Below the pieces are notes generated by a model. That model was not told the DNA's origin, ran no database searches, and saw nothing but the letters and a program-made list of their open reading frames with translations. DNA of 64,000 nucleotides from positions 160,001 to 224,000 of the forward strand of contig OY970364.1 of NCBI GenBank assembly GCA_963718565.1, in the 5' to 3' direction. This document shows, piece by piece, positions 2,658-50,202 of this stretch (the first letter of the stretch is position 1; each line of letters starts with the position of its first letter). The stretch comes from an uncultured Verrucomicrobiae bacterium (GTDB taxonomy: Bacteria > Chlamydiota > Chlamydiia > Chlamydiales > Rhabdochlamydiaceae). Made by a program: the position numbers and the translations under genes.

Positions 2658-3468
2658 GAGGAGTGCTTATTTTTGATGACACGATTGAAGAGAAGACCTA
2701 CACGGACGAAAATGAGATTATTTGTTGGCATTACTCGCATGCCAAGGGAAGATGTGTGAAGGGGGTCAACCTTTTATCATGTCTTGCTCGCTACGGAGAT
2801 ATTGCCTTACCCATTGCTTATGAGCCTATTTATAAAGACGTGCTTTTTTGTGATGTCGCCAGCAAAAAAGTAAAAAGACAGTCTTCAGTCAGTAAAAATC
2901 AAATGTTTCGATCTATGATTGCCCAAGCTGTAACCAATAAGGTTAAATTTGACTATATATTGTCTGATAATTGGTTCGGAGCGAAAAAAATATGGAGTTT
3001 ATTCATTATGATATGAAAAAGAAGTTTGTAATTGGGATCAAAGCTAATCGATTGGTCGCTCTTTCTGAAGAGGACAGAAAAAATGGTCAGTACCAAAATC
3101 TAAATGCATTACCACTCAAGGATGGAGAAAAAAGAATAGTCTGGCTAAAAGACATGTCTTTTTCTGTAGCACTCATTACAAAGATCTTCAAAAACGAAGA
3201 CGGCTCTACAGGCACTCTATACCTTGTTACAAATGACTTAGAAAGTGGTGCTGACCGAATCTACGAAATCTACCAAAAACGGTGGCGCATAGAAGAATAT
3301 CACAAATCGATCAAGCAGAACGCTAGCCTTGAGAAATCGCCGACTAAGGTTCTGCGCTCTCAAAAGAACCATATTTTTGCATCAATCATCGCTTATTGCA
3401 AGTTGGAATTTCTCCGAACTCAAACTTTTTTGAATCATTTTGCTCTGAAATATCAATTACTGATGAAG
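2642..3468 (+). pseudogene. Internal fragment of the IS701/IS4-like transposase, frameshifted
   Basis: Near-identical to the inside of 38811-39902. The A8 run there is A7 here (about 2984-2990), causing a frameshift; both IS ends are missing. Confidence 0.9.
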
Positions 3469-21728: not shown

Positions 21729-22808
21729 TCATTCCTTGTCGCTCTGGGTTTCTAGCCGTTGCTTTGCATGCTCAATTGCTTTGTTCAGTTTCTCTCGGAG
21801 AACTGCTTTGGAAGGTAGGGCAGTCAAATATTCGGCAACGTGGATGCCGGCTCGATCGAGTTCAAGGAGTTCGATCTGCTCACTTTGTTTGCCGGTGCAG
21901 AGAATAAGTCCCAAAGGAGGATGCTCCTCAGGCTGGCGCTCATATCTGTCGAGCCAACGAAGGTATAGTTCCATTTGTCCTTTGTGTTCAGGCTTAAAAT
22001 CTCCGAGCTTTAATTCGATGGCAACCAATCGTTTTAGTTTTCTATGGAAAAAGAGGAGGTCGAGGTGAAAATCTGTGTCATCGATAGTCATCCGTTTTTG
22101 ACGAGCAAGAAAGCAAAAGCCTATTCCTAATTCTAGTAAAAACTGTTCAAGCTCTCGCATGATCGCATCTTCAAGATCCTTCTCAATGTACCGATCATCG
22201 AGTTTCAGAAATTCAAGCACATAGGGATCACGAAAGACGAGGTCAGGTGAAAGTTGGTCTTCTTTGCGGAGGGCATCGATCTCAGCTTGAGCAACCAGTT
22301 CTGGACGTTTTGACAGTGCTGTTCTTTCATAAAGCATCGAGTCGATTTTTTTGCTTAAGGTCCGAACATTCCACCGTTCGATTCGGCACATCTCGGCGTA
22401 AAAATCGCGCTTGATAGCATCCTTGATCGGAATGAGTAACCTGAAATGGGACCAACTTAATTGGTGGGTCAGCGACAAAATGACTTGCTGGTCAGGAAAG
22501 ACTTCAGCGAACTGTATCATCCGATGTAAGTTCTTCTCCAAGAACCCTTTGCCATAATCTGCCGTCAATTGTCGCCACAGTGTGGCGACAATCTTTTTCC
22601 CGTATTCGGCACGTTCATCCTTAGGGATTTCTTTGCTGATGCGAGCTCCTACATGCCAGTACAGTAAGGTTAACCCAGCATTGACCGTGGACGCGATTGA
22701 CTTGCGGGTCTGATCGATCATGTGCCGCAGATCTTCAAGTAAAGCAACTGGGACGGTCGTCACGAGTGCCTGGGGCTGCGGAGGGGTGAGTGATGTTTGA
22801 GGATTCAT
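21729..22808 (-). CDS. DUF1016/YhcG PD-(D/E)XK nuclease family protein
   Basis: Start MNPQ at 22808 overlaps the integrase stop; LYWHVG, LSWSHF, RDPYVLEFL, IELK motifs. Confidence 0.9.
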   Translation of the reverse strand: MNPQTSLTPPQPQALVTTVPVALLEDLRHMIDQTRKSIASTVNAGLTLLYWHVGARISKEIPKDERAEYGKKIVATLWRQLTADYGKGFLEKNLHRMIQFAEVFPDQQVILSLTHQLSWSHFRLLIPIKDAIKRDFYAEMCRIERWNVRTLSKKIDSMLYERTALSKRPELVAQAEIDALRKEDQLSPDLVFRDPYVLEFLKLDDRYIEKDLEDAIMRELEQFLLELGIGFCFLARQKRMTIDDTDFHLDLLFFHRKLKRLVAIELKLGDFKPEHKGQMELYLRWLDRYERQPEEHPPLGLILCTGKQSEQIELLELDRAGIHVAEYLTALPSKAVLREKLNKAIEHAKQRLETQSDKE

Positions 22809-23879
22809 AGAGAGTCTCCTTTGAGGATTTGGTCTGAGATTTGATTGCTGAATTGTTTTGTGACTTGGACATCCATGTGGGTGTAATGGAGCAGCATCGC
22901 TAGGGTGCGATGGCCTGTGGCAGTGGCCAGTTGGAGGTTGGAGGCGCCTTTTGCAGCGGCGTAAGTACAGAACGTATGGCGCATGTCGTGGGCTCGGCAA
23001 TTAGTGATATTGGCTCGTTGGAGGGCTTGCTGCCAAGCTTTCTTGATGTCGATTCGTCCGAATGCTGTTTTGCTGGCAAAGACGAGAGGTTTTTGGGGAT
23101 TTCGTCTCTTTGTAGAGGCATTGGAGTTCTTCGATGACGGGATCGCAGAGGGCGATGCTGCGGGGACGGCCATTTTTGGTTTCTTTGATGTAGGCGAGTT
23201 TGTTGTTGAAGTCGATATGTTTCCATTCGAGATTGAGAATTTCGCCTTGGCGGGCTCCTGTAGTAAGCGAAAGAAGGATGATGCAATAGAGGTAAGGGGA
23301 TTTGCTTCTTCGGGAAGCGGTAAGAAGGCGTGTGATCTCGTCTTCAGAAAGGACGCGGTCTCGGCCGGGGTTTTCTTTGAGTTTCATGAGGCGCAAGCGC
23401 GGGGTTTTCGCTGATCCAGCGGAGCTGGAGGGTGGCATAAGTGAGAAGGGAGGAGAGCGAGGCCATGTAGCGATTGGTAGTGGCAGCAGTTCGTTTAAGA
23501 CTTCTGTTGTGTGGGAGTGTCGGTGAGGAATTGCCGTTCCTTACCTAGCAGTTCGGGGGTGATGTGGACAAGGCCGTAGGAGCCAAGGCGTGATTTCCAA
23601 TAGTTGAGGTGGCGGAGAGTGTCATCGGCAGGAGCGATGATGTTCGAGTGCGCCGTCTTGGATGTAGCGTTCTGTGAGTTCGGCGAAGGTACGGATTTGA
23701 TTGTGTTGGTCAAATTTGAATTGACCGGCTTTGATTTGTCGTTCGACGTTTGAAGCCCAGTCATCGGCTTCTTGCTTGCGTTCGAAGTGATTGCAGACAG
23801 TAGGGTAGCCTTTGATGCGGACGACAGCGCGCCAGACGGTGGTGCCGTTTTCATTTTTGCGTTTGAAAATAGATGCCAT
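22805..23879 (-). pseudogene. Tyrosine integrase of element B, multiply frameshifted
   Basis: Pieces in different frames: MASIFKR... (23879), RHLNYWK, TGARQGE...KNG, AHDMRH...TGH...HYTH. Confidence 0.9.
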
Positions 23880-24047
23880 GATTCCAACCTCATGTTTTGA
23901 GAGATTTAGTTGGTTGGATGGCGCTGCTGGTTAAGATTATTCTTTGTTGCACCGCCATTGCACCGTGCGGCTACAATTTAAACTTGAACTTGATATTCGT
24001 TCAAGTTAATTGTGCGCAAGTGCAATGGAATGTGCTGGTTAAGAATG

Positions 24048-25950: not shown

Positions 25951-27276
25951 ATGCTGATTCGATTTTCAATTGAAAATTGGATGTCCTTCCAAACCAAAGC
26001 CACTTTCTCGCTGATAGCAAGCCGTGAGCGTCAACATGGGGAGCGCATCCCTAAAATAGGCAAACTCAAACTCGGGGTTCTGCCTGTTGCGGCCGTATAT
26101 GGAGGGAATGCGTCCGGAAAAACCAATCTTTTTAAGGCCCTGCATTTTGCAAAAGGACTGATCGTTAAAGGGACCCAACCCTACAGCCTAATTGCTGTAG
26201 ATAGTTTTAGGCTTGGAAATGCACAAAAGGTCGAACAGCCAGCCCAGTTTGAGTTTGAACTGCTAATCGACGAGACGGTTTATGCATTTAGTTTCTCTGT
26301 TAACCGCAAAACCATTTTAGAAGAAAAATTGGTTCATATTTCTGGTAACAGCGAAAAGACTCTTTATCATCGAGTATCAGGAGAGCCTAATTTCGATTCA
26401 TCTTTAAAGAGTGACCAATCGCTCCAGTTTGCTTTCAAAGGCACTCGCGATAATCAGCTCTTCCTCACTAATTCAGTTTCTCAAAAAATAGATGCCTTCA
26501 AGCCAGTGTACGACTGGTTTAAAGATACATTGGAGCTGATCGCGCCTGATTCAAGATTTGAACTTTTTGAGCAATTTTTGGATGAAGGACATCCTTTGTA
26601 CGCAACGATGAATAAGATGTTGTCCCAATTAGATACTGGAATATCTCATCTTGGCGGTGAAGAAATTCCATTTGAAAATTTACCGCTGCCCGAACCGATA
26701 AAGATGAAGTTAAGAGAAGAATTGGCAGAAGATGCGACTGTCAGATTATTAGCCGAACCTGGGAATGAGCGTTTTGTCGTAACTCGAAAGAATGGCGAGT
26801 TAATCTCAAAAAAACTGGTCACCTATCATTTAAATTCTGATGGTTCAGAAACGAAGTTCGATATGAGACAAGAATCGGATGGTTCTCAACGTGTTATCGA
26901 TCTTCTTCCCGCTTTTTTAGAGCTATCTGCAGCTCAATCCAAAAAAGTCTATGTCATCGATGAAGTAGACAGGAGTTTACATACATTGTTGATCAGGCGT
27001 CTTCTAGAAGGCTATCTGGCAAAATGTTCTCATAATAGTCGCTCTCAGTTACTATTTACCACTCACAATGTGTTATTGATGGATCAGGATTTACTCAGAC
27101 GAGATGAAATGTGGATTGCAGAACGAAATGCGGAAGGGGTTTCCAGCTTGCTGTCTTTCAGCGAATACAAAGATGTGCGCTATGACAAAGACATTCGAAA
27201 AAGCTATCTCCAAGGACGCTTAGGAGGTATTCCTCGCATTCTTCTACAATCTCCCATCGAAAACCATACACAATGA
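25951..27276 (+). CDS. AAA_21 ATPase (RloA/AbiLi-like); partner gene removed by the IS
   Basis: [42 protein letters not shown]. Confidence 0.88.
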
Positions 27277-27349
27277 GGAACAATGGCAAATAAATCTAAG
27301 GAACTTAATCGAGAAATTGAAAATCGAATAGAAATTGAAATCGTTGTAG

Positions 27350-28650
27350 CAGGGCCATTTAACTAAAAATTTTTGATACCAGATCAGCTAAGATGGCATA
27401 ATAAATTCCTCAAATTTGGAGGACCTATTATGTCACGCCGTAAGCCAATCGACGCCACAATCCTAGAAGCTAGTAAGAATTTTGATGCCCGTGTATTCGC
27501 GGAAACCGTCAAGGGAGAGTTTGCAGATTTCCCTGATTATCGACGTAATCAAAAACGTGTCTTATATCCAGTTTGGTATTTGACTCTTGTTATTCTCTGC
27601 GGATTCTTTTGTGGATGCAATACGATTGAGGAAATCGCTGAATATGTTTCTCTGCAGGAGGAGTGGTTTTCTTCTCTGCTAGGTGAGGAGCTCTCAGCAC
27701 CTTCCCATGGAGCGCTCTGGTGGTTTTTAGTGAAAACACCCCCTGGTGCGCTCAAGCACTACTTGCAAAAATGGTTCAGCAAAATTCCTGCTTCATTGCG
27801 CGATCAGCTATTGGCGATCGATGGTAAACGGATGAAAGGCGCAAATTTCCTAGGCGGTGTCACACACGTAGTGGAGCTATTCGCAGCGGAGGATCGATTA
27901 TGTCTTGCCGTGGAAAAGGTCCCAAATAAAACAGTCGAAAAGAGCACGTTACCAATCATTTTGGAGCAAGTGAATGTAGAGGGGGCGATTATTTCAGGAG
28001 ATGCACATTTCACCGTAGCCGAATCGGCAGAACAAATCGTTGATGCGAAGGCAGATTATCTGCTGGCTGTTAAGGACAACCAGCCAACGCTGTGCGCTGA
28101 AATGGAGAATTTTTTTGATCAAGCTCACGCAGTCGAATGGGAGGAAGTCCCCCATTCGTTTCACCAGGAAGTAGATAAAGGCCATGGTCGAATCGACATT
28201 CGAGAAGTACGAGTCGTCGAGGACCTGGACTGGTTGCCAAATGCGGGCAAATGGAAAAACTTAGTCTGTCTCATCGAAGTAAGGTCCACGAGGCAAAAAC
28301 TTGGATCTACTGCCAATGAGGTATTTAGACGGCTATATATTTCGAGTCGTCGAGCATCTGCCAAAGATTTTGCTAAATGGACCCGACAGCACTGGAGCAT
28401 AGAAAACAAATGCCATTGGGTAGCTGATGTGATTTTTGAAGAGGATTATGCATTGACGGATAGAGGGAATAGTGCGGAGAACATGGGGTTGTTTCGACGT
28501 TTGGCTATGAACATGGCTGCAGTTGTAGATCCAGAAAGGGGGCTCGCCTCCGTAAGGCGCGCAGCAACTTTCGGTGGTGGGTACTTAAAGGGAATTTTGG
28601 CAACATTTTTCTGTTCGAAAATGTCAAAACATTTTAGTTAAATGGCCCTG
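27350..28650 (+). mobile_element. ISAs1-family IS (transposase 27430-28641)
   Basis: Terminal IR CAGGGCCATTTAACTAAAA; AIDGK, GDA, VKDNQ, HGRI, HWSIEN..HW..DV motifs; no target duplication. Confidence 0.93.
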
Positions 28651-29026: not shown

Positions 29027-29256
29027 AGAAGAACATATGAAAATTGAAAAAGTAGATACTCCTGCTGCGGGAACATGGGCACGGGATTGTGAGCTGTTAT
29101 GCCTATCTGATTGCAAAGGCTTTAAAATAAGGTACCACAGAGACGAAGATGATACTTACTGGAGTCTGCAATGCAAGGGGATTGTAGCATATAAAGTAAT
29201 GGGGGCTTGTAACAGAATCCATTGAACTTATTCAAACCTGATTATATATTATCAGA

Positions 29257-29679
29257 ATGAACAAGTTTTTAAGCATTCAGGAAGCAGCAAAATGTTTGGG
29301 AGTTTCTCCACAAACACTCCGCCGATGGGAAAGACAAAAGAAAATCGTTCCCTGTCATCGCATACAGGGCGGCCAACGCCGCTATAGTCTCACTCAGTTA
29401 CAGCCATTTAATTGCGGAGATAAAACCTCTGATCGTCTAACTGTTGCCTACGCAAGAGTTTCGAGTCATGATCAAAAAGAAGATTTACAACGACAAGTCC
29501 ATATGTTAGAAATTTACTGCTTTGCAAAAGGATGGGTGTTTTCGGTAACCAAAGACCTCGGTTCCGGGATGAACTATAATAAACGTGGGCTAAAACAACT
29601 GCTTGAGCAAAATGGTTCAAGAAGCCATAAGAACAAACAGCTTTTGGCCAACCTTCAAAATGCGGTCGCCAATGTCTAA
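29257..29679 (+). pseudogene. tnpA: IS607 TnpA (MerR-HTH + serine recombinase), internally deleted
   Basis: LGVSPQTLRRWE, YARVSS, DLGSG present; the middle of the catalytic domain is missing (GLKQLLEQ jumps to GSRSHKN). Confidence 0.8.
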
Positions 29680-31156
29680 AGAGAATCTGGTTCTTAAGCT
29701 GGGAATTGAAGCAGACCCTCAAACAATTTCTGAGCTCGATGGGCAATCGCGGATCTGTAATTGGCTTTATAATCATCTGCTAGAAAAAAGCCTGGAACTC
29801 AAGCGGGAATTTATCCATTCCGGCAACCCGGAGGCATCAAAGACCCTCTATACAGAAAGAGGACTCAGAAATGAACTTCCAAAACTCAAGGAAGAGCACC
29901 CCTTTCTAAAAGTCGTCCACTCTTCTCCATTAAAAAATACCGCTTTGAGACTTAGTGAAGCAATCCGGGTTCATCAAAAATCAAAAAAAGGAAAACGGAA
30001 AGGCAAACAGATGGGTTGGCCCAAATTTCGGGCCTGGAAACGGGACTGGTTTTCTCTTTTTTACGATGAACCAGAAAAAGGTTTCAAGATTCACGGCAAA
30101 GCCTTGTTCCTCTCCCTTGGAATGGGCCAGGACCGCAAGCGCCGCTTCCTCACTCTCGAATTACCCGAAGCACATCTCCTCAAAGACAAAACCCCACGCA
30201 ATTTGCGCATTATCTCCGAACTGGGAACCTACTATGCCATTTTTACCATTCAGAAAGAACTCCCCATCCGAAAACCCATTTCTAAAATCCTCGCACTCGA
30301 TCCCAATCACAAAAATCTCGCCTATGGTGTTGACACAAGTGGAACAGCCATTGAGATTGCATCTCCTCACTGGCTCAAAACTTACGATAAACGCCTGGAC
30401 GAACTAAAAAGTAAAAGAGACCGCTGTGATAAAAAATCTAAAAAATTCCATGTTCTGGATGAAAAAGGCAATCCCACAGGAAAAGAATTCCATCTTCCTT
30501 CCAGGCAATGGAGAAAATACGATCATGCCCTAAAAAGCGCACTGCGTAAACGCCGAGAACAGACCAAGACGTTTATGTTTACAAGCGCACATCGCCTTTT
30601 CCGAAATTACGACTGCATTGGAATCGGAGACTATACACCAAATGGCGAAGGCATTACTAAACCAATGCGGCGAGCGATGAATAACCGATCCTTGATTGGA
30701 CGTTGGAAAAACACCCTCTCCTGGGTAGCTCGAAAATCGGGAAAAACCTTTATTGAATTCGACGAGAAAGGGACAACCCGGACCTGTAGCCACTGCCTGC
30801 GGATTGAAGAGCGGGGAATCCCTGTCTCATTGAGACAATGGCAATGTCCACAGTGCAAGACCGTTCACATTCGCGACGAGAATGCCGCAATTAACGGCTT
30901 GAGAAAGATCTTGCGAGATCTTTCAGCAAAAAATGAAGGAGGATATCCTTCAATAGTGTCTGGCTCAGACCTCGCTTTTATCCAAAAGCGATGGGCCTGG
31001 TGTGTTTTGCCTAATGGTGTACATGTGACACCGTGGGGGCAAGACAGCAAAGCAATTTGCAGCACCAGGAAATTAAACCGAGGGCATGATAGCCCTCGAT
31101 CAAAAGTTGATAATTTGGTTATATACTCTAGAAAATTGAAGTCTGGAGAGGATTGA
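29672..31156 (+). CDS. tnpB: TnpB RNA-guided endonuclease, IS607 type
   Basis: WLYNHLLE, GWPKFR, RuvC-I ALDPN, DEKGTTRTCSHC, CPQC, RuvC-III RDENAA. Confidence 0.9.
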   Translation: MSKENLVLKLGIEADPQTISELDGQSRICNWLYNHLLEKSLELKREFIHSGNPEASKTLYTERGLRNELPKLKEEHPFLKVVHSSPLKNTALRLSEAIRVHQKSKKGKRKGKQMGWPKFRAWKRDWFSLFYDEPEKGFKIHGKALFLSLGMGQDRKRRFLTLELPEAHLLKDKTPRNLRIISELGTYYAIFTIQKELPIRKPISKILALDPNHKNLAYGVDTSGTAIEIASPHWLKTYDKRLDELKSKRDRCDKKSKKFHVLDEKGNPTGKEFHLPSRQWRKYDHALKSALRKRREQTKTFMFTSAHRLFRNYDCIGIGDYTPNGEGITKPMRRAMNNRSLIGRWKNTLSWVARKSGKTFIEFDEKGTTRTCSHCLRIEERGIPVSLRQWQCPQCKTVHIRDENAAINGLRKILRDLSAKNEGGYPSIVSGSDLAFIQKRWAWCVLPNGVHVTPWGQDSKAICSTRKLNRGHDSPRSKVDNLVIYSRKLKSGED

Positions 31157-32245
31157 GTTCAATTGTTTGGAAATTGTCGTTAATTCGCTTTTTCAGCATG
31201 TCTTTTAAATTAATAACGCCAGTGTTGAAAAAATCTCTAATTTTCTCAGTAAATTCATTGAATTTTGAATACAGTGTATTATAAGTAACACACTCTCTCA
31301 TAACTTTCCATAAACGCTCAATAGCATTCAAATTTGGGGAATACGGAGGTAAGTAGTGTATTTGAATTTTGGTTTGGCTATCCAAATATTTTTGCACTTC
31401 CTTATTCTTGTTTGATCTGCCGTTGTCTAAGATTAAGTGGATTTTTTTTGCATCTGTATTAGCCGCTAACGTTTGGAGAAAATCGACCGCACTTGCAGCA
31501 TCCACAGTGCTATATTCCTTCGTCACGACTTGCATTGCAGTCAATTCAATGGCACCAATAAAATGCAATCGCTCTTGCTTAGCGGTTGTTCCTAATGTCT
31601 TTATTTCGTTTTTTAGGATCCACCCAGCCACAGACTGGCTCTGATACTCAGGGTGTACAGCATCTCCAAAGAAAATTTTCTCGCCTTCTTGGAGACCGGC
31701 TTTCAATTCATTGTATTTTTTAAGGAACGCAGCTTGTTTTTCGGGATCGAGCTTTCCTGGTACTTTGATTGGATGTTTATAAACAAATCCATGCCTCTTC
31801 AACCAATTTGTCATACCAGCCACAGTGTATTTCACTTGATATGCGTCTAGAACGTAGAGACAAATTTTGCTCATTTTGAGATACGTTATTTGACTCAAAT
31901 GTCTCCTCAGCGCATCTTCTTGGTCTAGGGTTAACTTGGAGGCCTTTCCCAAATGTGGATCATTGATAGTTTTTTGCTTGGCATCGTATTCTCTTTGATA
32001 ATCATAAACGGACGACTCGCTAATTCTTAAAATCGCCGCTATTTCCCCTGGACTGTGGCAATCATCCCTACCTAAAATGACGCATACACGGTTCCGTTCG
32101 TTGACATCTCTTGTTTTTTTTACAAGCTGTTCTAAATATAAACGCTGCTCATTGGACAACTTTTGCATAGAAGCATTATCCACTATCGCTGAAATATTTT
32201 TTAGGGAAATTTAAAATTTTACAGAATCCAATCATGAATAGTATA
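31122..32245 (-). mobile_element. IS630-family IS (transposase 31128-32183)
   Basis: FGDAVHP, LILDN, LPPYSPNLNAIERLW; inserted in a TA tract with imperfect IRs beginning TATACT. Confidence 0.92.
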
Positions 32246-32553
32246 TATGATCAGGTTTGATCAAGTTTTGAAGAGCGGAAGAATTTTCAACAACAGGATA
32301 TCTGATTAAGTTGCCTGTGGATGGAGCCTTTTTTGAGATATCAGATTCCCCCTGGATACGTGAATTTGGACAAGAACGATCTAGAATTTTAGATAAGTGC
32401 AAGCATTATGTCCTTCGGTTTTACGATGAAACAATAGAAATTATTGCCCAAGATTTTGTGTTTGAGCAATTGAAAGAAAAGCCGCTAATTAACTGCTAGG
32501 GCATTGAAATTTTCTAGAAAAAAGAGAGGATTCTTTTTAATTAAGGTAAATAA

Positions 32554-32861: not shown

Positions 32862-34351
32862 TGCGCTGCCGACAAAAAGTTGGACAGAAAATCGAGGGGA
32901 ATAAGTAACTCTCTGTGTTAAGTCTTTCTCTATAAGCCATTCTGCAGCTCATATTCGCTGCATATTATTCTAAGGTTATATTTCCTACAATCTCTTTTTT
33001 TCTTTTCTTCTTTTTTCTCCAGTGAGAACTTTCCTGTTTTCGGGGGTGCGGGGGCGAAGCCCCGACCCTCCTCTTATTCTGAAAAACAGACCTTATAATG
33101 CCCAAACTGAGGTGGATGGGGTAGGGGCCCCATCCGCCGAAGGCGGGAGCAGGGGGGACGGTAGTCCCCCGACAAGCCTTTCCCAAATAAGCCGGACAGG
33201 CTTCTTGAAAAGCCCTCGGAATGCTTGGCATATACGTACACAAACGTTCTTGGATTTTCAACTTTCATTTTTTTGCTTTTTTGACTTCGAATCCTTTGTA
33301 CTCTCCTTTTGAATATTTGGGTTTGATTCCATGATAAATTTCATTGGGTGTCGCATACAATAAGGCCTGATGCGGTCTACTGCAATTGAAATGCTCGATA
33401 TACTCATCAACCCCAGCACGCAGTGCTCTTACTGTTTCATAACGATGTAAATATATTTTTTCGTATTTCAGAGACCACCAACCTCTCTCTTGATAGACGT
33501 TGTCAATGCACCTGCCCTTGCCGTCCATGCTGATCTTGATACCTCGTTGCCGCAATAATTCTAGAAACGCGGTGCTTGTAAATTGAGACCCTTGATCCGT
33601 GTTAAAATATTCTGGACACGTTTTCTGTAAGGCTATTTCTAGTGCTGCAAGACAAAAATCCACAGTTATAGTGTTCGAGAGCTCCTGAGCAAGCACGTAT
33701 CTGCTAAACCAATCGGTCACTGTAATCAGATAGACAAAACCGTTAGCCAATGGGAGAAATGTTATATCGGCACTGAAAACCTGGTTAGGAGTTCCAATCC
33801 ACAAACCATTTAATAAATAGGGATAGTGCGGGTGTGATGCGGAGGGTTTGCTGAGGTTTTTTCTGGGAAGAACAGATAAAAACCCCATTTTTCTCCATAA
33901 CCTCTCAATCCTTTTTTCATTCACGTTAAATCCCTCACGCCTTAAATCGGCATGTATTTTTCTATAACCATATTCGGGTTGCGCATAATGCAATTCTTCT
34001 ATTTTCTGCATAAGAGCAAGGGTTTCTTCTGACTCTACTATAGGAGCATAGTAATAACTAGATCGAGGGAGGCCCAACGCTTCACATTGAGCCTCGACAG
34101 ACAACATGGGATGTTCAGGTTCAATCAACCTGCGTTTCTCAAGAGTTGTCAACCCCGGTTTTTTTTTTCAAAAATTCGAGCTGAGACTGAAGCCTGCCTA
34201 TTTGGGCATAAAGCGCCTCAATGTCTATATCTGGGGCCGATTTTTTTTTACGCCTATCTTCAAACAGCCGCGAGATGCCTTGAACTGCTTGACTTTTCCA
34301 TTTGGTGATTTGTGCTGGATGTATTTTGAATTGTTGGGCCAAGTCTGATAG
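32862..34351 (-). mobile_element. IS3-family IS, 5'-truncated (orfB 33265-34152, partial orfA)
   Basis: YGYR, ADIT, TDQGSQF, GRCIDN...E motifs; A-run frameshift site at about 34159-34168; orfA cut by the second IS3. Confidence 0.88.
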
Positions 34352-35687
34352 TATAATGGTCCCCAAAATTTAGACCACTGTCTAAGCTAATATCCTCCCA
34401 ATGCGAGGAGGCCAAAATGGCCAAAACAAAAAAACAATATTCACCGGAGTTCAAGCTCAAAGTAGTACTAGAAGTGCTCAAGGGTGAGAAGACAGCAACC
34501 CAACTCGCTGGCGAGTTGGGGGTACATCCCGTAGTTCTGTCGGAATGGAAAAAACAATTTATTGAGGCAGGACCTCAGATTTTTGTAAAGACCAGGAGGT
34601 CTAGGGATACAGCAGAGGGCAAAGAAAAGGCCGAACTGTTCGAACAGATTGGAAGACTCAAGATGGAGAACGAGTGGCTTAAAAAAAAATTGGGGGCTTT
34701 GACCTGAATGAAAAACGGGCACTCATTGAACCTCACGATATCAAATTTTCCCAAAGAGCACAGTGTAAGCTCCTCGGAGTATGTCGATCTGGATTGTACT
34801 ACGAGCCACAGCAGCCTGGTGAAGAAGACTTGCGACTCATGTGCGCAATCGACAAACAGTACCTCGAAACCCCCTATTATGGGAGGCGTCGAATGACAGT
34901 GGCAATGAGAAAACTAGGATTTGTCGTGGGACAGAAAAAAGTGCGAACAGCGATGCAGGTGATGGGGATAGAGGCGATCTATCCAAAGCCGAACCTGAGC
35001 GCTGGGAATAAACAGCATAAAAAGTTCCCGTATTTACTGAGGGGCCTAATTGTTGATCGTTCCGATCAAGCTTGGGCAGCTGACATCACTTACATTCCAT
35101 TAACAAAAGGATTCGGATATCTGTTTGCAATCATAGACTGGTATAGTCGGTACGTGATTGAGTGGGAGCTCTCAAATCTGCTTGATACAGAATTTTGCAT
35201 GGAGGCATTGCAAAGGAGTCTTTGGCAAAAAAGACCTGAGATATTTAATACTGATCAAGGTGTGCAGTTTACGAGTAGTCAATTCACCGGGAAACTTGAA
35301 GAGAATGGGATTAAAATCAGTATGGACGGGAAGGGTCGAGCTCTTGATAACGTGTTTATTGAGAGGCTGTGGAGAAGCGTGAAGTATGAAGAAATTTACC
35401 CGAAAGGATACGAGAGCATGAAAGAGGTTCGATCGGGGCTGAAAAAGTACTTTGAGTTTTACAACAACAAGCGACCCCATCAGGGTCTCGATTATCGAAC
35501 CCCAGCAGAGGTGTATTATGGGACATAAGAAAAAGAAAGGGGCTTTGCCCCTTGAACCCCAGCAAAGGGCTGACTGCCCTTTGCAAACCCGTGGGCTTTT
35601 GTATAGGGCCCTGGGAGTTAGATTAAACAACAGAGGAGATTAGCTTAGATTTCTCGATTTTTGGTCTAGACAAAAGGAACCACTTTA
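34352..35687 (+). mobile_element. IS3-family IS (orfA 34417-34707, orfB to 35528, -1 frameshift at the A9 run)
   Basis: YSPEFKLKVV HTH, DITY, TDQG, DNVFIERLW; imperfect IRs ending TAGACC; no target duplication. Confidence 0.92.
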
Positions 35688-47145: not shown

Positions 47146-47520
47146 TTAGGGAATAAACTCTCTTTTCTTCGCCCAATATGCAAGCATTCCGCGCCGTGCT
47201 GCAGCTCTACTTTTATCTTTGCCTTCCTGAGTTTTTGCCCCTGTTGATAGGCCTCCATGCATTCGACAACGGCCATTAATGGGTTCTCCTGTTTTGGGGT
47301 CCACCACGACCTTAGCTTTGCAAGAACGGCCACTTCGGCACTTGGCACCACATAAAGGCCGGTCCTTTTTCCACAAACTTTCGTTTTTCCAATGAGCCGA
47401 ATGATAAATATCTAACATCTGAGCTTTTCTGTGATTGGAATAACTCCATGGCTCCCAAGGTTTATACTGCCAGGATCTAACCATAATTCCCTTCCATTGA
47501 TAAGAATGGCTTACCACCAA
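47146..47520 (-). CDS. HGGxSTG-domain protein
   Basis: CGAKCRSG..C...RCRMHGGLSTGAKTQEG. Confidence 0.85.
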   Translation of the reverse strand: MVVSHSYQWKGIMVRSWQYKPWEPWSYSNHRKAQMLDIYHSAHWKNESLWKKDRPLCGAKCRSGRSCKAKVVVDPKTGEPINGRCRMHGGLSTGAKTQEGKDKSRAAARRGMLAYWAKKREFIP

Positions 47521-47726
47521 TAATGTCCCGCTTCTCTGGCCATTATTTTGAATTGGTCATCTTGCTCTCTGTGTTTTTTCATCGCTTTAGATGCCCTCTC
47601 TTTTGCTTTATCATTGCCTTTTTCTTTGGCTACAAGCCACCGCCTAACATAATCCATATACTTACATGCTCTTTGATTTTTGAGCGCCTCAACCTTCTCA
47701 AAATCATAAAAGTCATACTTGTCCAT
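47511..47726 (-). CDS. Small hypothetical protein
   Basis: GGAG RBS; co-oriented between the primase and the HGGxSTG gene. Confidence 0.55.
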   Translation of the reverse strand: MDKYDFYDFEKVEALKNQRACKYMDYVRRWLVAKEKGNDKAKERASKAMKKHREQDDQFKIMAREAGHYWW

Positions 47727-47862
47727 TTTGGTTCTCCAATTTTATGCACCATGGCTGCGGTGCTGCTTTCTCCTTATTTCTCTACTCAACTCCCTCGCTA
47801 AAGTTGCTAAACTGCTAAAGCTTCATGGCCTTAGATAAAAAATCCTTAGCAGATTAGCAGGT

Positions 47863-50202
47863 TTAGCAGCTCTCCATATTTTGTGGAGGTTTAATCGTCC
47901 ACGCTTCCTTGCATTTTTTGTCATTGATGACGAGATTTGGAGTGGGGATGACCCACCCATGGCTTGCAAGGATGGACATGATCGTTCGAGCACGGTCGGC
48001 ATTCCTGATACCAAGAGAGAGGGGGCCATATTGGTAAATCGTGCTGAGTCCAACCTGTTTGTAGTTTTCTTTCCATAACCACTTGAGTAAGGAGGCTGCA
48101 CAAACGAGCTCTGGATTGATCGAGACAAATCCATGAATGCGTAGTCTCTCTGTGAAATAGAATTGGATAAGAATGATTGCTCTTTGGATGTACTCAGAGC
48201 TAATTTCTTCTACATCGGGATTTTCAATAAGTGCCAGAGTGCCGCTAAGCCGTAGAACATGTTCGGGTGCTTTACTGGCGAACCGGCGAATTGGGTGATA
48301 TGGTTTCCCCTCTGCCAGATCCTCTTCGTTTTTGTTATGAAAAGCGATCCAAATCTTTTTGGCATCGCTGCTTAGAGGGAGAAGGATTGGTGAGATTTCA
48401 TTCTTTGGATCAAGAGGTGAATTTTCCTTGGCATTCGCATCCAACAGGCGATTCATTGCGTCATTGAATCGTTTGATTGCGGGATCCGCAGAGAGATCTT
48501 CTTCGACATAGGCTCGACTTCCAGCCATAGACTGAGGAAACACAATCAGACAGCGAGGTAGGAACCCTTGCAAATCAAAGATGGGGTTACTCAGGAGTTG
48601 GCTGAGAACCACTTCTTGCATCATCAAGTGGAGAGAAAGTCTTTTTCCATAGAGGAGCATGTCACCATCGCCAGCCCTCATCCACGAAATTTCTTTACCA
48701 TCCCAAAGAGACGATAGCCCAGCCAACGTTTTTAATAGGTTGTCGCGATTCATAGCGTGCCCCCCAAAGAATCTTCCTCCCTCATCGCTAAACAAACCGA
48801 TACTAGGTTGGCCATCTGCAGAGAAGTATTTAACGATACCTTCGTAGGTGGGCTCTTCAGCAAGAACTAAGGGACGCAGGGGAGGTGCGGGAGGCGGTTC
48901 GGAAAAAGTCGAATCTGAGGAAGCACTTTTGATCCATTCTTTCTTCCTCGCTTCCCAGGCTTCCTTGTGGATCTGGAATTTTGGGTATTCTGTTCGATAG
49001 CAATCAGCTAACATTTTCTGCCAGGAGAATATCGGCTTTAAAGCTATTTTATCCGTGGCGCTCTTTCGATCCCCTGACTCTGCAATAGTGAGATAGAACT
49101 CCGAAAGAGGATTTTCTCGACCGTCGATGGTAATGTTTGCATGGGCTTGAGTTGCAAGTGAAGTTGCCGCTAGAACGCTCTGGGCGCATATGCTATCCGG
49201 TGCTTTGATAACTCTATGCATCGCTTGTGCGGCAGATCCGAGAATGGGGCCTAGCGCATCCATTGGAAAAGGCTGAGGAGATCCTATTTGACGATAGAGG
49301 GGAAGAGGGTCCACTGGACAATCACTTTCTATTCCTAGAAAAGTGATCAGATCACGGACTGTTTTCAATTCGCAATGCTTATGGAAACATTTAAATCCAT
49401 GGTCCGGATAGCCATTTGTGTTCGGTTCGTAATATTTTGTGCCTGTGTCTTGTTGGGAATGAAGCTGTGCCCATGGACATCGGATGCTCCAACATCCCTG
49501 TGGATGCGATTGTTTTTGGAGCAGCATCCCATGACGTTCGAGTGCTTCTAGAACAGGGTTATTTTTTGCCGATTCATTTGTGGAAATAGATGGCGTTGGG
49601 TTGGGAGAAAGTGAGATCCCAAACGCATCCAGGAATTGTTGTAGAGAAAAGGGTTGTTTGCCACTCTCTTGGATGATTTTAGTGAGAAAGGGATCTTGTT
49701 TTTGGTGGAGGAACCCAGGAAGACGCATGACCCTAGCAAGATCATGTACTTGGGGATCTCCCTGAAAAAAGCCGATTAGCTTTTTTTGGATGAGGGAAAA
49801 ATGTTGCAGTTCAATGCCTTCAACAACCCAATAAGCATGAAATCGACTGGGACTCGATTCAACGATGATGTGAGGAGATAAAGGAGCCGAAAAGATGGGT
49901 TCAAGAGGACTTCCATCAAGGTCGACAAAGACTGCTGTGACCTGAGTGATATTCTCTGTTTTGCGCCCTTTTCCATCGGTTTGATTGATTGTGACGAAAA
50001 TGCCCGCTCCCTGCTCTTGAAGTCGTATAAAATTGTTTGCGAATTCATCGAGTGTCCCGCAGAGAACTTGGGGCTTGACTAGCGTTTCGGAATTTTTCCG
50101 ATCGTTAAAGATTTGGAAGGCAAAAATAGATTCCTCATCCCGTGAAAGATGGCTTAAGAATCTTTTTGCCGTTGTGAGATCTTGCGAGTTATAATGGGTC
50201 AT
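47863..50202 (-). CDS. RepB-type primase + DUF3987 (YfjI-like) helicase
   Basis: GIFVTIN, FVDLD, ESSP..HAYW, RLPG, CPW..H...CFH..C, AESGDRKS, SDEGG, GFLPR. Confidence 0.87.
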   Translation of the reverse strand: MTHYNSQDLTTAKRFLSHLSRDEESIFAFQIFNDRKNSETLVKPQVLCGTLDEFANNFIRLQEQGAGIFVTINQTDGKGRKTENITQVTAVFVDLDGSPLEPIFSAPLSPHIIVESSPSRFHAYWVVEGIELQHFSLIQKKLIGFFQGDPQVHDLARVMRLPGFLHQKQDPFLTKIIQESGKQPFSLQQFLDAFGISLSPNPTPSISTNESAKNNPVLEALERHGMLLQKQSHPQGCWSIRCPWAQLHSQQDTGTKYYEPNTNGYPDHGFKCFHKHCELKTVRDLITFLGIESDCPVDPLPLYRQIGSPQPFPMDALGPILGSAAQAMHRVIKAPDSICAQSVLAATSLATQAHANITIDGRENPLSEFYLTIAESGDRKSATDKIALKPIFSWQKMLADCYRTEYPKFQIHKEAWEARKKEWIKSASSDSTFSEPPPAPPLRPLVLAEEPTYEGIVKYFSADGQPSIGLFSDEGGRFFGGHAMNRDNLLKTLAGLSSLWDGKEISWMRAGDGDMLLYGKRLSLHLMMQEVVLSQLLSNPIFDLQGFLPRCLIVFPQSMAGSRAYVEEDLSADPAIKRFNDAMNRLLDANAKENSPLDPKNEISPILLPLSSDAKKIWIAFHNKNEEDLAEGKPYHPIRRFASKAPEHVLRLSGTLALIENPDVEEISSEYIQRAIILIQFYFTERLRIHGFVSINPELVCAASLLKWLWKENYKQVGLSTIYQYGPLSLGIRNADRARTIMSILASHGWVIPTPNLVINDKKCKEAWTIKPPQNMESC

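What the first reader, a model, noticed from the sequence alone, without database searches (positions are those of the whole stretch)
29672..31156. IS607 TnpB with a Fanzor-type rearranged RuvC site
Seen: RuvC-I is D-P (ALDPN); the usual RuvC-II glutamate position reads IGIGD; a glutamate lies just before the zinc finger (FDEKGTTRTCSHC); RuvC-III RDENAA is intact. Known: this relocated-glutamate layout characterises eukaryotic Fanzors and the IS607 TnpBs thought to have given rise to Fanzor2. Inference: a Fanzor-like RNA-guided nuclease in a probable intracellular bacterium, a plausible bridge lineage to protists and giant viruses.
Basis: partly seen in the sequence, partly recalled or inferred. 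Interest (0 to 1): 0.72.

Follow-up and report, generated by a model that had tools for sequence, protein, structure and literature searches.

The report
Rearranged-site TnpB in chlamydial IS607
This is a transposon-borne RNA-guided nuclease (TnpB) whose catalytic glutamate has moved, as in eukaryotic Fanzors, but it belongs to a large, purely bacterial branch and not to the line that led to Fanzors, and this copy has lost part of its transposase and has its guide RNA gene split by another transposon.

Summary
The ORF at window 29672-31156 is a TnpB with RuvC-I DPN (D210), Gly319 where ISDra2 TnpB has its catalytic Glu278, an invariant Glu365 six residues before the first CxxC, and RuvC-III RDENA (D402). 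Glu365 aligns with Glu467 of mimivirus Fanzor2, whose E467A mutant is inactive.

This layout is a published class of rearranged-RuvC-II TnpBs. Family members already sit in a published supplementary table. In my tree the chlamydial family lies deep in a bacterial clade with Asn as the third RuvC-I residue (Chlamydiota, Gammaproteobacteria, Chloroflexota, Bacillota). A long, well-supported branch separates that clade from the one holding giant-virus Fanzor2. An AU test rejects joining them (p 1.9e-6). The fold is closest to ISDra2 TnpB (Z 26.8), not Fanzor2 (Z 19.4).

The host element is a 1955-bp IS607 derivative:
- It has 8 copies with complete tnpB, 99.4-99.9% identical to the window copy, in a 2.28-Mb genome.
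- Its tnpA carries a 198-bp in-frame deletion that removes the catalytic core.
- Two other copies keep full-length tnpA but have a broken tnpB.
- A right-end guide RNA scaffold is strongly supported by covariation.

In the window copy an IS630-like element splits that scaffold.

Verdict: new member of a known kind, with modest interest.

The parts
29202..31125 (+). IS607-family element, from the left end (GGGGCTTGTAACAG...) to the IS630 insertion point. The intact element is 1955 bp.
   Evidence: Boundaries come from 8 copies with unrelated flanks. Both ends carry GG, as expected for IS607 crossover (Yoon 2023, figure legend read).
29257..29679 (+). tnpA remnant, 140 aa. It keeps the MerR-type HTH and the N-terminal part of the serine recombinase with the Ser motif YARVSS. 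A 198-bp in-frame deletion (junction about 29611/29612) removes 66 aa, including ...THKDRLLRFG...
   Evidence: Pfam MerR 50.2 bits. Resolvase matches only profile positions 2-58 of 145. NF033518 matches positions 2-114 of 187. Compared with the 206-aa TnpA of two other copies.
29672..31156 (+). tnpB ORF as it stands in the window (494 aa). Residues 1-485 are native. The last 9 residues and the stop are read from the IS630-like insert.
   Evidence: NF040570 scores 136 bits against a cut-off of 100, and PF07282 scores 55.6 bits. Relatives start at the same MSKENLV. The native end ...VIYDQV* is seen in the 7 other full-length copies, and in the window copy once the IS630 is left out in a script.
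30299..30301 (+). Codon of D210, the RuvC-I aspartate, in the motif DPNHKN.
   Evidence: Invariant in 55 of 55 sequences. It aligns to D324 of mimivirus Fanzor2 in the profile alignment.
30626..30628 (+). Codon of G319, at the position of the canonical RuvC-II glutamate.
   Evidence: It aligns to E278 of ISDra2 TnpB. Invariant Gly in 55 of 55 sequences. It lies at the end of strand 315-319 in the model.
30764..30766 (+). Codon of E365, the alternative glutamate, six residues before C372.
   Evidence: Invariant in 55 of 55 sequences. It aligns to E467 of L79/ApmFNuc, and the E467A mutant is reported inactive (Jiang 2023, legend read). It lies just after strand 359-363.
30785..30856 (+). Zinc finger, C372-x2-C375 ... 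C392-x2-C395.
   Evidence: C372 and C392 are invariant, and C375 and C395 are conserved in at least 90% of sequences.
30875..30877 (+). Codon of D402, the RuvC-III aspartate, in RDENA.
30963..31125 (+). Guide RNA (omegaRNA/reRNA) scaffold, 5' part, lying inside the tnpB coding region (codons 431-485).
   Evidence: In an intact copy the last 246 nt fold at -96.3 kcal/mol against -62.65 +/- 4.5 for shuffles, z -7.48. There are 46 consensus pairs, and 31 of them show compensatory changes across 30 loci. Mapped to the window.
31126..32241 (-). IS630-like insertion of about 1116 bp. Its transposase ORF is 31128-32183 on the minus strand. It is flanked by TATATA at 31120-31125 and 32242-32247.
   Evidence: Pfam DDE_3 99.3 bits and HTH_33 58.5 bits. 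Junctions compared with an intact copy.
32242..32278 (+). Last 37 bp of the IS607 element. It holds the 3' strands of scaffold helices 1 and 7 and the invariant terminus GAGCGG.
   Evidence: In the window copy, helices 30963-30966/32273-32276 and 31100-31102/32269-32271 span the insertion.
32279..32298 (+). Flank that would serve as the guide if the scaffold were contiguous. This is an inference, and the length is assumed.
   Evidence: By analogy with ISXfa1 and ISDra2, where the reRNA runs past the right end (Yoon 2023, passage read). DNA conservation among 30 loci stops exactly at GAGCGG.

Best explanation
The ORF is the TnpB of a non-autonomous IS607-family insertion sequence. It belongs to the known class of TnpBs with a rearranged RuvC-II site. 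Gly319 sits where the canonical glutamate would be, and Glu365, just after the fifth strand of the RNase H fold and six residues before the zinc finger, most likely completes a D210-E365-D402 triad.

The family's right end encodes a structured guide RNA of about 190 nt that lies almost entirely inside the 3' end of tnpB and ends in the invariant GAGCGG at the transposon boundary. By analogy with ISDra2, ISXfa1 and the tested rearranged TnpBs and Fanzor2, the protein-RNA complex should cut DNA that matches the sequence flanking the right end. That is the empty donor site left after TnpA-mediated excision at GG, and cutting it helps the element persist.

In this genome the 8 copies with complete tnpB all carry the same 198-bp deletion in tnpA. 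They must therefore have spread using TnpA supplied in trans, probably from the two copies that keep full-length tnpA and whose tnpB is broken.

The window copy is a dead end for RNA guidance in cis, because an IS630-like element has split the scaffold 31-37 bp before the right end. The lineage is a bacterial D-x-N/Gly/alt-Glu clade distinct from the one that contains Fanzor2.

Shown here: the motifs and their conservation, the fold, the copy structure, the RNA covariation and the tree. Inferred: nuclease activity, the role of E365, trans-mobilisation, and the TAM.
For: Family assignment:
- NF040570 scores 136 bits against a cut-off of 100.
- The AF2 model has pLDDT 89.5 and pTM 0.83.
- Best structural matches are ISDra2 TnpB (Z 26.8, rmsd 2.5 over 337 residues) and ISFba1 TnpB (Z 23.3) (Foldseek).

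Active site:
- G319 aligns to ISDra2 E278.
- E365 aligns to L79 E467, and D210 aligns to L79 D324. Both L79 residues are reported as catalytic-dead mutants.
- D210, G319 and E365 are invariant in 55 of 55 sequences.
- D320 is Asn in 2 of 11 close relatives.
- Strand positions agree with the published description of the rearranged site.

Mobility:
- 18 matches in the genome, 8 of them full length and 99.4-99.9% identical to the window copy, with unrelated flanks and GG ends.
- All 8 have an open 488-codon frame.

tnpA:
- 10 copies match only model positions 2-114 of 187. Two copies are full length at 214-217 bits.
- The deletion junction and the two full-length-tnpA copies (one with a 1260-bp tnpB deletion, one with IS630 in tnpB) are seen.

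Guide RNA:
- Fold z-score is -7.48.
- The 3' DNA is conserved in 41 of 80 related loci, up to the element end.
- 93.9% of cells are paired, against 42-50% when partners are slid. 31 of 46 pairs are compensatory, against 8-17 when slid. 0 of 500 shuffles reach the observed values.

Lineage.
Against: - No activity data exist for any member of this D-x-N clade that I could find.
- I had no model coordinates, so the distance of E365 to D210 and D402 was not measured.
- Among the 8 copies, tnpB shows 6 synonymous and 7 non-synonymous variants. That gives no sign of purifying selection at this shallow depth.
- NF038280 (IS607_TnpB) scores 62 bits against a cut-off of 350.
- No copy in the genome has both an intact tnpA and an intact tnpB.
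- The window copy cannot make a contiguous scaffold plus guide.
- The flanks show no conserved motif, so no TAM can be read.
- The tree is a quick search and carries long-branch warnings. It has only 2 canonical-Glu outgroup rows, and its rows were sampled as the best hits of two queries.
- The AU group was named after the tree had been seen, and the test used LG+G4 without the mixture model.
Confidence: 0.78

Rival explanations
1. It is a pro-Fanzor. On this view the chlamydial family is the bacterial lineage closest to Fanzor2, passed between amoeba symbionts, giant viruses and protists.
For: It shares Gly at the canonical site and Glu six residues before the zinc finger with L79. It is linked to an IS607 TnpA. 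Pro is kept after the RuvC-I Asp. The host phylum lives inside eukaryotic cells; this last point is general knowledge and was not tested here.
Against: - RuvC-I is DPN, not DPG.
- The RuvC-II strand reads IGDYTP, against IGKLS in 10 of 13 Fanzor2-group rows and 17 of 21 of their ~420-aa relatives.
- The tree separates the two clades with SH-aLRT 96 and 100.
- The AU test gives p 1.9e-6 with a log-likelihood difference of 441.9.
- The 120 best hits of the Megavirus Fanzor2 query (down to E about 6e-18) include no member of this family.
- P0001 matches L79 at only 29.2 bits, about the same as it matches ISDra2 TnpB at 32.6 bits.
- Structure Z is 19.4 for Fanzor2 against 26.8 for ISDra2 TnpB.
- The viral scan confirmed no relative.
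- Relatives occur in Clostridia, Bacilli, Chloroflexota and Gammaproteobacteria.
Confidence: 0.04
2. It is a catalytically dead, domesticated TnpB (TldR-like or another regulatory derivative). On this view the loss of the canonical glutamate means loss of function.
For: The canonical RuvC-II glutamate is absent. The recent copies show no excess of synonymous changes.
Against: - An alternative Glu, both Asp residues and the zinc finger are invariant or nearly so across 55 diverse sequences.
- The same layout is active in ApmFNuc and TvTnpB (Jiang 2023, passages read).
- The gene sits in a multi-copy mobile element with conserved ends, not at a fixed locus beside a partner gene.
- The guide RNA scaffold is maintained by compensatory changes.
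Confidence: 0.08
3. Asp320, next to Gly319, replaces the canonical glutamate, and Glu365 is structural only.
For: D320 is one residue from the canonical position, and the alignment could be shifted by one.
Against: This position is Asn in 2 of 11 close relatives (P0006, P0103). It is Asn, His or Ser in 10 of the 59 representatives and Lys in L79. E365 is invariant.
Confidence: 0.03

Closest known systems
TnpBs with a rearranged RuvC-II site ('TnpB2', e.g. Thermoplasma volcanium TvTnpB, Jiang et al. 2023 Sci Adv; clade RIIr-5 of Altae-Tran et al. 2023 PNAS; 'Ealt' TnpBs of Yoon et al. 2023 NAR)
   Same: The canonical Glu is replaced by Gly, and a conserved Glu lies about 45 residues downstream, six residues before the zinc finger. 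Both are transposon-borne with a right-end RNA.
   Different: I could not map this family onto a named clade (RIIr-5 or any other), because no labelled clade sequences were to hand. The third residue of RuvC-I is Asn in 51 of 59 representatives. All four regular expressions in Yoon's Table S7 require Gly there, so that census does not classify this family. At least one member is nevertheless listed in their Table S1.
Acanthamoeba polyphaga mimivirus Fanzor2 (L79 / ApmFNuc, PDB 9b0l)
   Same: Gly at the canonical site. E467 aligns to E365 and D324 aligns to D210. The element context is IS607-like.
   Different: L79 has DPG and IGKLN motifs and an N-terminal extension of about 125 residues. It matches at only 29.2 bits (phmmer) and Z 19.4. 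It lies in a separate clade.
ISDra2 TnpB (PDB 8exa, 8h1j, 8bf8)
   Same: It is the best structural match (Z 26.8, rmsd 2.5, 337 of 341 residues) and shares the compact architecture. Its guide RNA also overlaps the 3' end of the gene.
   Different: It has the canonical Glu278 and a D-V-G RuvC-I motif, and it travels with an IS200/IS605 Y1 transposase. The present protein has about 70 extra C-terminal residues, including a confidently predicted hairpin at 439-454 that no solved chain covers.
ISXfa1 (IS607) TnpB and its reRNA (Yoon et al. 2023)
   Same: It has a serine-recombinase TnpA, GG at both ends and a reRNA that runs to the transposon boundary, with the terminal nucleotides fixed as part of the scaffold. 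Here the terminus GAGCGG is invariant in 30 of 30 loci.
   Different: No sequence comparison was made, because no ISXfa1 sequence was to hand. The TAM of the present element is unknown.

Membership tests
TnpB, RNA-guided endonuclease (NCBIfam NF040570; Pfam PF07282) | Profile score over the curated cut-off | tested here: met
   NF040570 scores 136 bits against a cut-off of 100. PF07282 scores 55.6 bits against 26.3.
TnpB, RNA-guided endonuclease (NCBIfam NF040570; Pfam PF07282) | RuvC fold with three acidic residues and a C4 zinc finger | tested here: met
   D210, E365 and D402 are present, with CxxC...CxxC. The model has pLDDT 89.5 and matches ISDra2 TnpB at Z 26.8.
TnpB, RNA-guided endonuclease (NCBIfam NF040570; Pfam PF07282) | Structured guide RNA encoded at the right end and ending at the transposon boundary | tested here: met
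   Met for the family and for intact copies: z -7.48, and 31 of 46 pairs are compensatory. In the window copy the scaffold is split by IS630.
TnpB, RNA-guided endonuclease (NCBIfam NF040570; Pfam PF07282) | RNA-guided, TAM-dependent DNA cleavage | not testable with these tools
   This needs a biochemical or plasmid-interference assay.
Rearranged RuvC-II (alternative-glutamate) TnpB | Non-acidic residue at the canonical RuvC-II glutamate position | tested here: met
   G319 lies opposite ISDra2 E278 and is invariant in 55 of 55 sequences.
Rearranged RuvC-II (alternative-glutamate) TnpB | Conserved Glu six residues before the first CxxC (ExxxxxxCxxC) | tested here: met
   E365-KGTTRT-C372, invariant in 55 of 55 sequences. 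It aligns to the catalytic E467 of L79.
Rearranged RuvC-II (alternative-glutamate) TnpB | The alternative Glu lies in the active site in three dimensions | tested here: inconclusive
   Only the secondary structure of the model was available. E365 follows strand 359-363, as the published description expects. No coordinates were available, so no distances were measured.
Pro-Fanzor / Fanzor2 lineage (Yoon et al. 2023) | DPG motif at RuvC-I | tested here: not met
   The motif is DPN in this protein and in 11 of 11 close relatives.
Pro-Fanzor / Fanzor2 lineage (Yoon et al. 2023) | Alternative glutamate | tested here: met
   See above.
Pro-Fanzor / Fanzor2 lineage (Yoon et al. 2023) | Encoded in an IS607 element with a serine-recombinase TnpA | tested here: met
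   NF033518 scores 112.6 bits for the truncated tnpA in the window, and 214-217 bits for the two full-length copies.
Pro-Fanzor / Fanzor2 lineage (Yoon et al. 2023) | Groups with Fanzor2 in a phylogeny | tested here: not met
   The two fall in separate clades with SH-aLRT 96 and 100. The AU test gives p 1.9e-6. Caveats: the rows around Fanzor2 are unlabelled, and only two outgroup rows were used.
IS607 family insertion sequence | Serine recombinase TnpA with an N-terminal MerR-like HTH, upstream of tnpB | tested here: met
   In the window copy the recombinase lacks 66 residues.
IS607 family insertion sequence | GG dinucleotides at both ends, and several copies in unrelated flanks | tested here: met
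   The left end is GGGGC... and the right end is ...GAGCGG in 8 of 8 copies, and the flanks are unrelated.
TldR / inactivated TnpB derivatives | Loss of the catalytic residues or of RuvC-III, at a fixed non-mobile locus | tested here: not met
   The triad and zinc finger are conserved, and the gene is multi-copy and mobile.

The most novel reading that the evidence does not exclude
The D-x-N / Gly / alt-Glu proteins may form a large, experimentally untouched TnpB lineage. They combine two departures from the textbook RuvC site: Asn instead of the near-universal Gly in RuvC-I, and the relocated glutamate. Motif-based censuses that require D-x-G skip them, and environmental Chlamydiota, a phylum reported as TnpB-poor, hold an expanded reservoir.

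This genome also offers a natural two-part system. Eight tnpB-complete copies with a dead tnpA coexist with two tnpA-complete copies with a dead tnpB. In that setting one could test directly whether an IS607 TnpB promotes the spread or retention of elements that depend on transposase supplied in trans.
Probability: 0.3. Interest if true: 0.45.

Novelty: new member of a known kind. Interest (0 to 1): 0.3.

Why it matters
It shows that the 'Fanzor-type' active site alone does not mark proximity to eukaryotic Fanzors. The relocated glutamate is shared by a broad bacterial clade that is phylogenetically distinct from the Fanzor2 lineage.

The family could still be useful. It is compact (488 aa). 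Its guide RNA scaffold is clearly delimited, supported by covariation, and has an invariant 3' end. Published work reports that enzymes with this rearranged site lack collateral cleavage (Jiang 2023).

The split between copies that keep only tnpB and copies that keep only tnpA is a small natural experiment on how IS607 elements and their nucleases depend on each other.

Tried and rejected
- Scans with the 55-sequence alignment A2 failed because no stretch was conserved enough. I repeated them with the 11-sequence alignment A1.
- The IMG/VR scan with A1 patterns matched 33 stretches, and tblastn confirmed none as a relative.
- Rfam gave nothing for the element except an unrelated partial tRNA hit at the locus edge.
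- The earlier-findings look-ups by place (near) and by sequence returned nothing.
- The ESM Atlas returned only generic TnpB clusters.
- Cluster look-ups for 10 representatives, including the three DPG ones, gave no organism names except one Patescibacteria member in the P0247 cluster.
- I tested whether the three DPG-bearing neighbours (P0135, P0136, P0141) are closer to L79 than the window protein is. They are not. L79 scores 31.5 bits for P0141 and does not reach E 0.01 for the other two.
- The AU test on the full 88-row set with the mixture model did not finish in three calls. I replaced it with a 38-row LG+G4 test.
- Model coordinates are not exposed, so I made no active-site distance measurement.
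- RNA evidence is weak. Two metatranscriptome runs hold contigs of relatives: 7 pieces 90-99% alike in X1, and 2 pieces in X2, one of them identical over 171 nt. These are contigs from RNA libraries, so they do not show transcription, RNA ends or an omegaRNA, and no contig covered positions 2879-3005 of the locus.
- I looked for a TAM in the flanks of 8 copies and found no conserved bases outside the element.
- Literature searches for 'TnpB' with 'Chlamydiae' and for 'IS607' with 'Chlamydia' and 'amoeba' found no paper on this family.
Full report
**What is there**

Window 29672-31156 (+) is an open frame of 494 codons. It scores 136 bits against NCBIfam NF040570, the RNA-guided endonuclease TnpB family (cut-off 100). 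It scores 55.6 bits against Pfam PF07282. The specific IS607_TnpB model NF038280 reaches only 62 bits against a cut-off of 350.

- ALDPN (D210)
- IGIGD (G319, D320)
- FDEKGTTRTCSHC (E365, C372, C375)
- RDENAA (D402)

One search gives the codon coordinates.

**Is the active site really rearranged?**

phmmer against PDB sequences aligns ISDra2 TnpB ...IIGTEHL... with ...CIGIGDY.... This puts its Glu278 opposite G319. The mimivirus Fanzor2 chain (L79, 9b0l_P) aligns ICIGK with IGIGD and NEYLTTKTCSNC with DEKGTTRTCSHC. Its E467 therefore lies opposite E365. In the profile alignment its D324 (GIDPG) lies opposite D210.

Jiang et al. 2023 (PMC10530073; passages and legends read) report D324A and E467A as catalytically dead. 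They also report that enzymes with the rearranged site cut their targets but lack collateral activity.

Conservation supports the reading:
- In 55 aligned relatives, down to 25% identity, D210, G319, E365, C372, C392 and R401 are invariant, and D402 is kept in at least 90%.
- Of 59 full-length representatives of 50%-identity clusters, 57 have Gly at the canonical site and Glu six residues before the zinc finger. The other two did not align there.
- D320 is Asn in 2 of 11 close relatives and Lys in L79, so it is not the missing acid.

An AlphaFold2 model (pLDDT 89.5, pTM 0.83) puts G319 at the end of strand 315-319 and E365 just after strand 359-363. This is the shift from the fourth to the fifth strand that Altae-Tran et al. 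2023 describe (PMC10691335, section 8 read). No coordinates were available to me, so the distance of E365 from the two aspartates remains unmeasured.

**What kind of TnpB is it?**

The layout is published. Three descriptions apply:
- Jiang's 'TnpB2'.
- Altae-Tran's RuvC-II-rearranged clades. In the largest, RIIr-5, the Glu is replaced by Gly.
- Yoon et al.'s 'Ealt' TnpBs (PMC10711439; passages read).

Yoon's fingerprint for Fanzors and their cyanobacterial 'pro-Fanzors' is DPG at RuvC-I plus Ealt. Here RuvC-I is DPN. Asn is the third residue in 51 of 59 representatives: DPN in 38, and DQN, DLN, DFN or DMN in 13. DPG occurs in 3, DPH in 2 and DLG in 1, and 2 did not align.

All four regular expressions in Yoon's Table S7 require Gly at that position, so their motif census does not class this family. 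Searches of their supplement found DPNHKN 12 times and VHSSPLKN 4 times. One Table S1 entry is clearly a member of the chlamydial family. No value is shown in the pro-Fanzor/Fanzor column for the Table S5 entries carrying DPNHKN.

**Relatives and hosts**

- The word-indexed search found 834 proteins at E <= 0.001 among 7999 scored. The only named ones in the top 120 are Chlamydiae MAG proteins.
- The exhaustive representative search found 1854 clusters at E <= 0.001 and 116 at E <= 1e-30.
- In species-representative genomes, 87 of 116 pattern matches were confirmed and 80 loci were kept. At 60-86% identity the records are mostly titled Chlamydiae, Chlamydiales, Rhabdochlamydia, Waddliaceae or Parachlamydiales. 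At about 50% they are Gammaproteobacteria, Chloroflexota, Francisellaceae and others. At about 40% they are Clostridia and Bacilli.
- IMG/VR confirmed no relative.
- Within the window's own phylum the gene is patchy: 12 of 301 genomes, counting this one, match at E <= 1e-30.

Altae-Tran et al. call Chlamydiae TnpB-poor. This genome, with 8 full copies, is an exception. Earlier notes of this scan call the genome an environmental chlamydia, and one says Rhabdochlamydia. I checked this only through the record titles of relatives.

**Test of the 'bridge' idea**

I fetched giant-virus Fanzor2 genes from IMG/VR with a degenerate pattern for the EYLTTKTCSNCG motif. One is the Megavirus chiliensis 'transposase' (P0296). 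Its 120 best relatives include Cotonvirus, mamavirus and Megavirus courdo11 proteins and many unnamed ~420-aa proteins, but no member of the chlamydial family.

Motifs differ consistently:
- The Fanzor2 group and its relatives read G-x-D-x-G-x-R at RuvC-I and I-G-K-L/I-S at the canonical strand.
- The present clade reads D-P-N-H-K-N and I-G-D-Y-T-P.

An 88-row tree (IQ-TREE quick search, LG+C20 PMSF, 399 columns) was rooted on two canonical-Glu TnpBs. It gave:
- One clade holding all 41 rows of the chlamydial family and its representatives (SH-aLRT 96).
- A second clade holding all 45 Fanzor2-side rows (SH-aLRT 100, branch length 1.52).
- The chlamydial family itself supported at 97, with sister P0123.

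An AU test on the full set did not finish. On 38 rows under LG+G4 it rejected chlamydial family plus Fanzor2 as one clade (log-likelihood difference 441.9, p 1.9e-6).

Caveats:
- The group was named after the tree had been seen.
- The program issued long-branch warnings.
- There are only two outgroup rows.
- The rows next to Fanzor2 are unlabelled, so I cannot say which of them are Yoon's pro-Fanzors.

Structure agrees with the tree (Foldseek):

| Chain | Z | rmsd | aligned |
|---|---|---|---|
| ISDra2 TnpB | 26.8 | 2.5 | 337 |
| ISFba1 TnpB | 23.3 | 2.9 | 365 |
| Fanzor2 (9b0l) | 19.4 | 3.9 | 368 |
| Fanzor1 SpuFz | 11.6 | 5.2 | 342 |

The Fanzor2 score is tied with the Cas12f chains.

**The element**

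BLAST and alignment of the genome's copies define a 1955-bp element, from GGGGCTTGTAACAG... to ...GTTTTGAAGAGCGG. There are 8 copies in unrelated flanks, with 20 variable sites among them. All 8 have an open 488-codon tnpB ending ...VIYDQV, whose stop lies 18 bp before the right end.

tnpA in the window (29257-29679, 140 aa) matches only positions 2-114 of the 187-position IS607 transposase model. Ten copies in the genome share this truncation, and two are full length. Comparison shows an in-frame 198-bp deletion that removes 66 residues, including ...THKDRLLRFG.... I recall, from no call, that this motif holds the conserved Arg residues of serine recombinases.

The two copies with full-length tnpA have a broken tnpB. 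One has a 1260-bp deletion that leaves tnpA plus the right-end RNA region. The other has an IS630-like insertion at about residue 178. Because the deletion junction is shared by copies at different loci, the deleted form must have spread with TnpA supplied in trans. This is an inference.

**The guide RNA**

- The last 246 nt of an intact copy fold at -96.3 kcal/mol, against -62.65 +/- 4.5 for shuffles (z -7.48).
- nhmmer finds this region in 41 of the 80 related loci, with homology ending at the element's last base.
- I aligned 30 of them. I dropped 11 further copies from genomes already represented and one cut locus.
- The terminus GAGCGG is invariant in 30 of 30.
- RNAalifold predicts 46 pairs in 7 helices, and 31 pairs show compensatory changes.
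- 93.9% of cells pair, against 42-50% with partners slid by 1-3 columns. Compensatory pairs number 31 against 8-17 when slid. 0 of 500 shuffles reach any observed measure.
- The scaffold starts at codon 431 of tnpB, so the last ~58 codons are read from DNA that also encodes the RNA. The conserved protein tail (VSGSD...RWAWCVLP) and the confidently predicted hairpin at 439-454 may therefore owe part of their conservation to the RNA.

**The window copy**

An IS630-like element of about 1116 bp is inserted in a TATATA tract 31-37 bp before the right end. Its transposase is at 31128-32183 on the minus strand (DDE_3 99.3 bits). This replaces the last three TnpB residues by nine foreign ones. It also separates the 3' strands of helices 1 and 7 and the GAGCGG terminus (now at 32242-32278) from the rest of the scaffold. 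This copy can still encode a near-native protein, but it cannot make a contiguous scaffold plus guide.

**Limits**

- No member of this clade has been assayed, as far as my two literature searches show.
- The 8 copies differ by 6 synonymous and 7 non-synonymous tnpB changes, too few to show selection.
- The metatranscriptome contigs are of relatives only and do not show an RNA species.

**Verdict**

The interpretation as a Fanzor-like bridge is not supported. It is a new member of a known kind, and the family-level RNA scaffold and the tnpA/tnpB split among copies are its more useful features.

Noticed in passing
window 31126-32241; also G000:C1 near 47400-49400 (L105), L011/L012, L008: The IS630-like element that interrupts this copy is itself multi-copy. 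It has also landed inside at least two other copies of the same IS607 family (in tnpB at about residue 178 in L105, and between tnpB fragments in L011/L012). BLAST shows another copy about 1.2 kb downstream of the IS607 copy in L008.
   Followed up: partly
G000:C1:1529889-1530690 (locus L104): A mini-element of about 893 bp keeps the full-length tnpA and the right-end RNA region but has lost 1260 bp of tnpB. It mirrors the abundant tnpA-deleted, tnpB-complete form.
   Followed up: partly
window 30963-31125 (tnpB codons 431-485): Dual coding. The covariation-supported RNA scaffold lies inside the tnpB reading frame. The model predicts a confident beta-hairpin at residues 439-454 that no solved TnpB, Cas12 or Fanzor chain in the list covers.
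   Followed up: partly
window 25951-28641: An AAA_21 (AbiEii-like) ATPase ORF (25951-27276, 133.4 bits) lies directly upstream of a DDE_Tnp_1 / DDE_Tnp_1_assoc transposase (27373-28641).
   Followed up: no
window 33265-35528: ORFs that look to me like IS3-family transposases are at 33265-34152 (-), 34139-34366 (-), 34417-34707 (+) and 34794-35528 (+). This is judged by eye from their translations and was not scanned. About 10 kb around the finding appears to be a patchwork of at least five insertion sequences.
   Followed up: no
window 22001-24000: GC content is 0.49 and GC skew is +0.215, clearly above the rest of the window.
   Followed up: no
locus L002 1441 (= window 29612): A metatranscriptome contig of a 90-95% similar relative runs on at the tnpA deletion junction into sequence that looks like the full-length tnpA. 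Relatives with undeleted tnpA therefore probably exist in that sample.
   Followed up: partly
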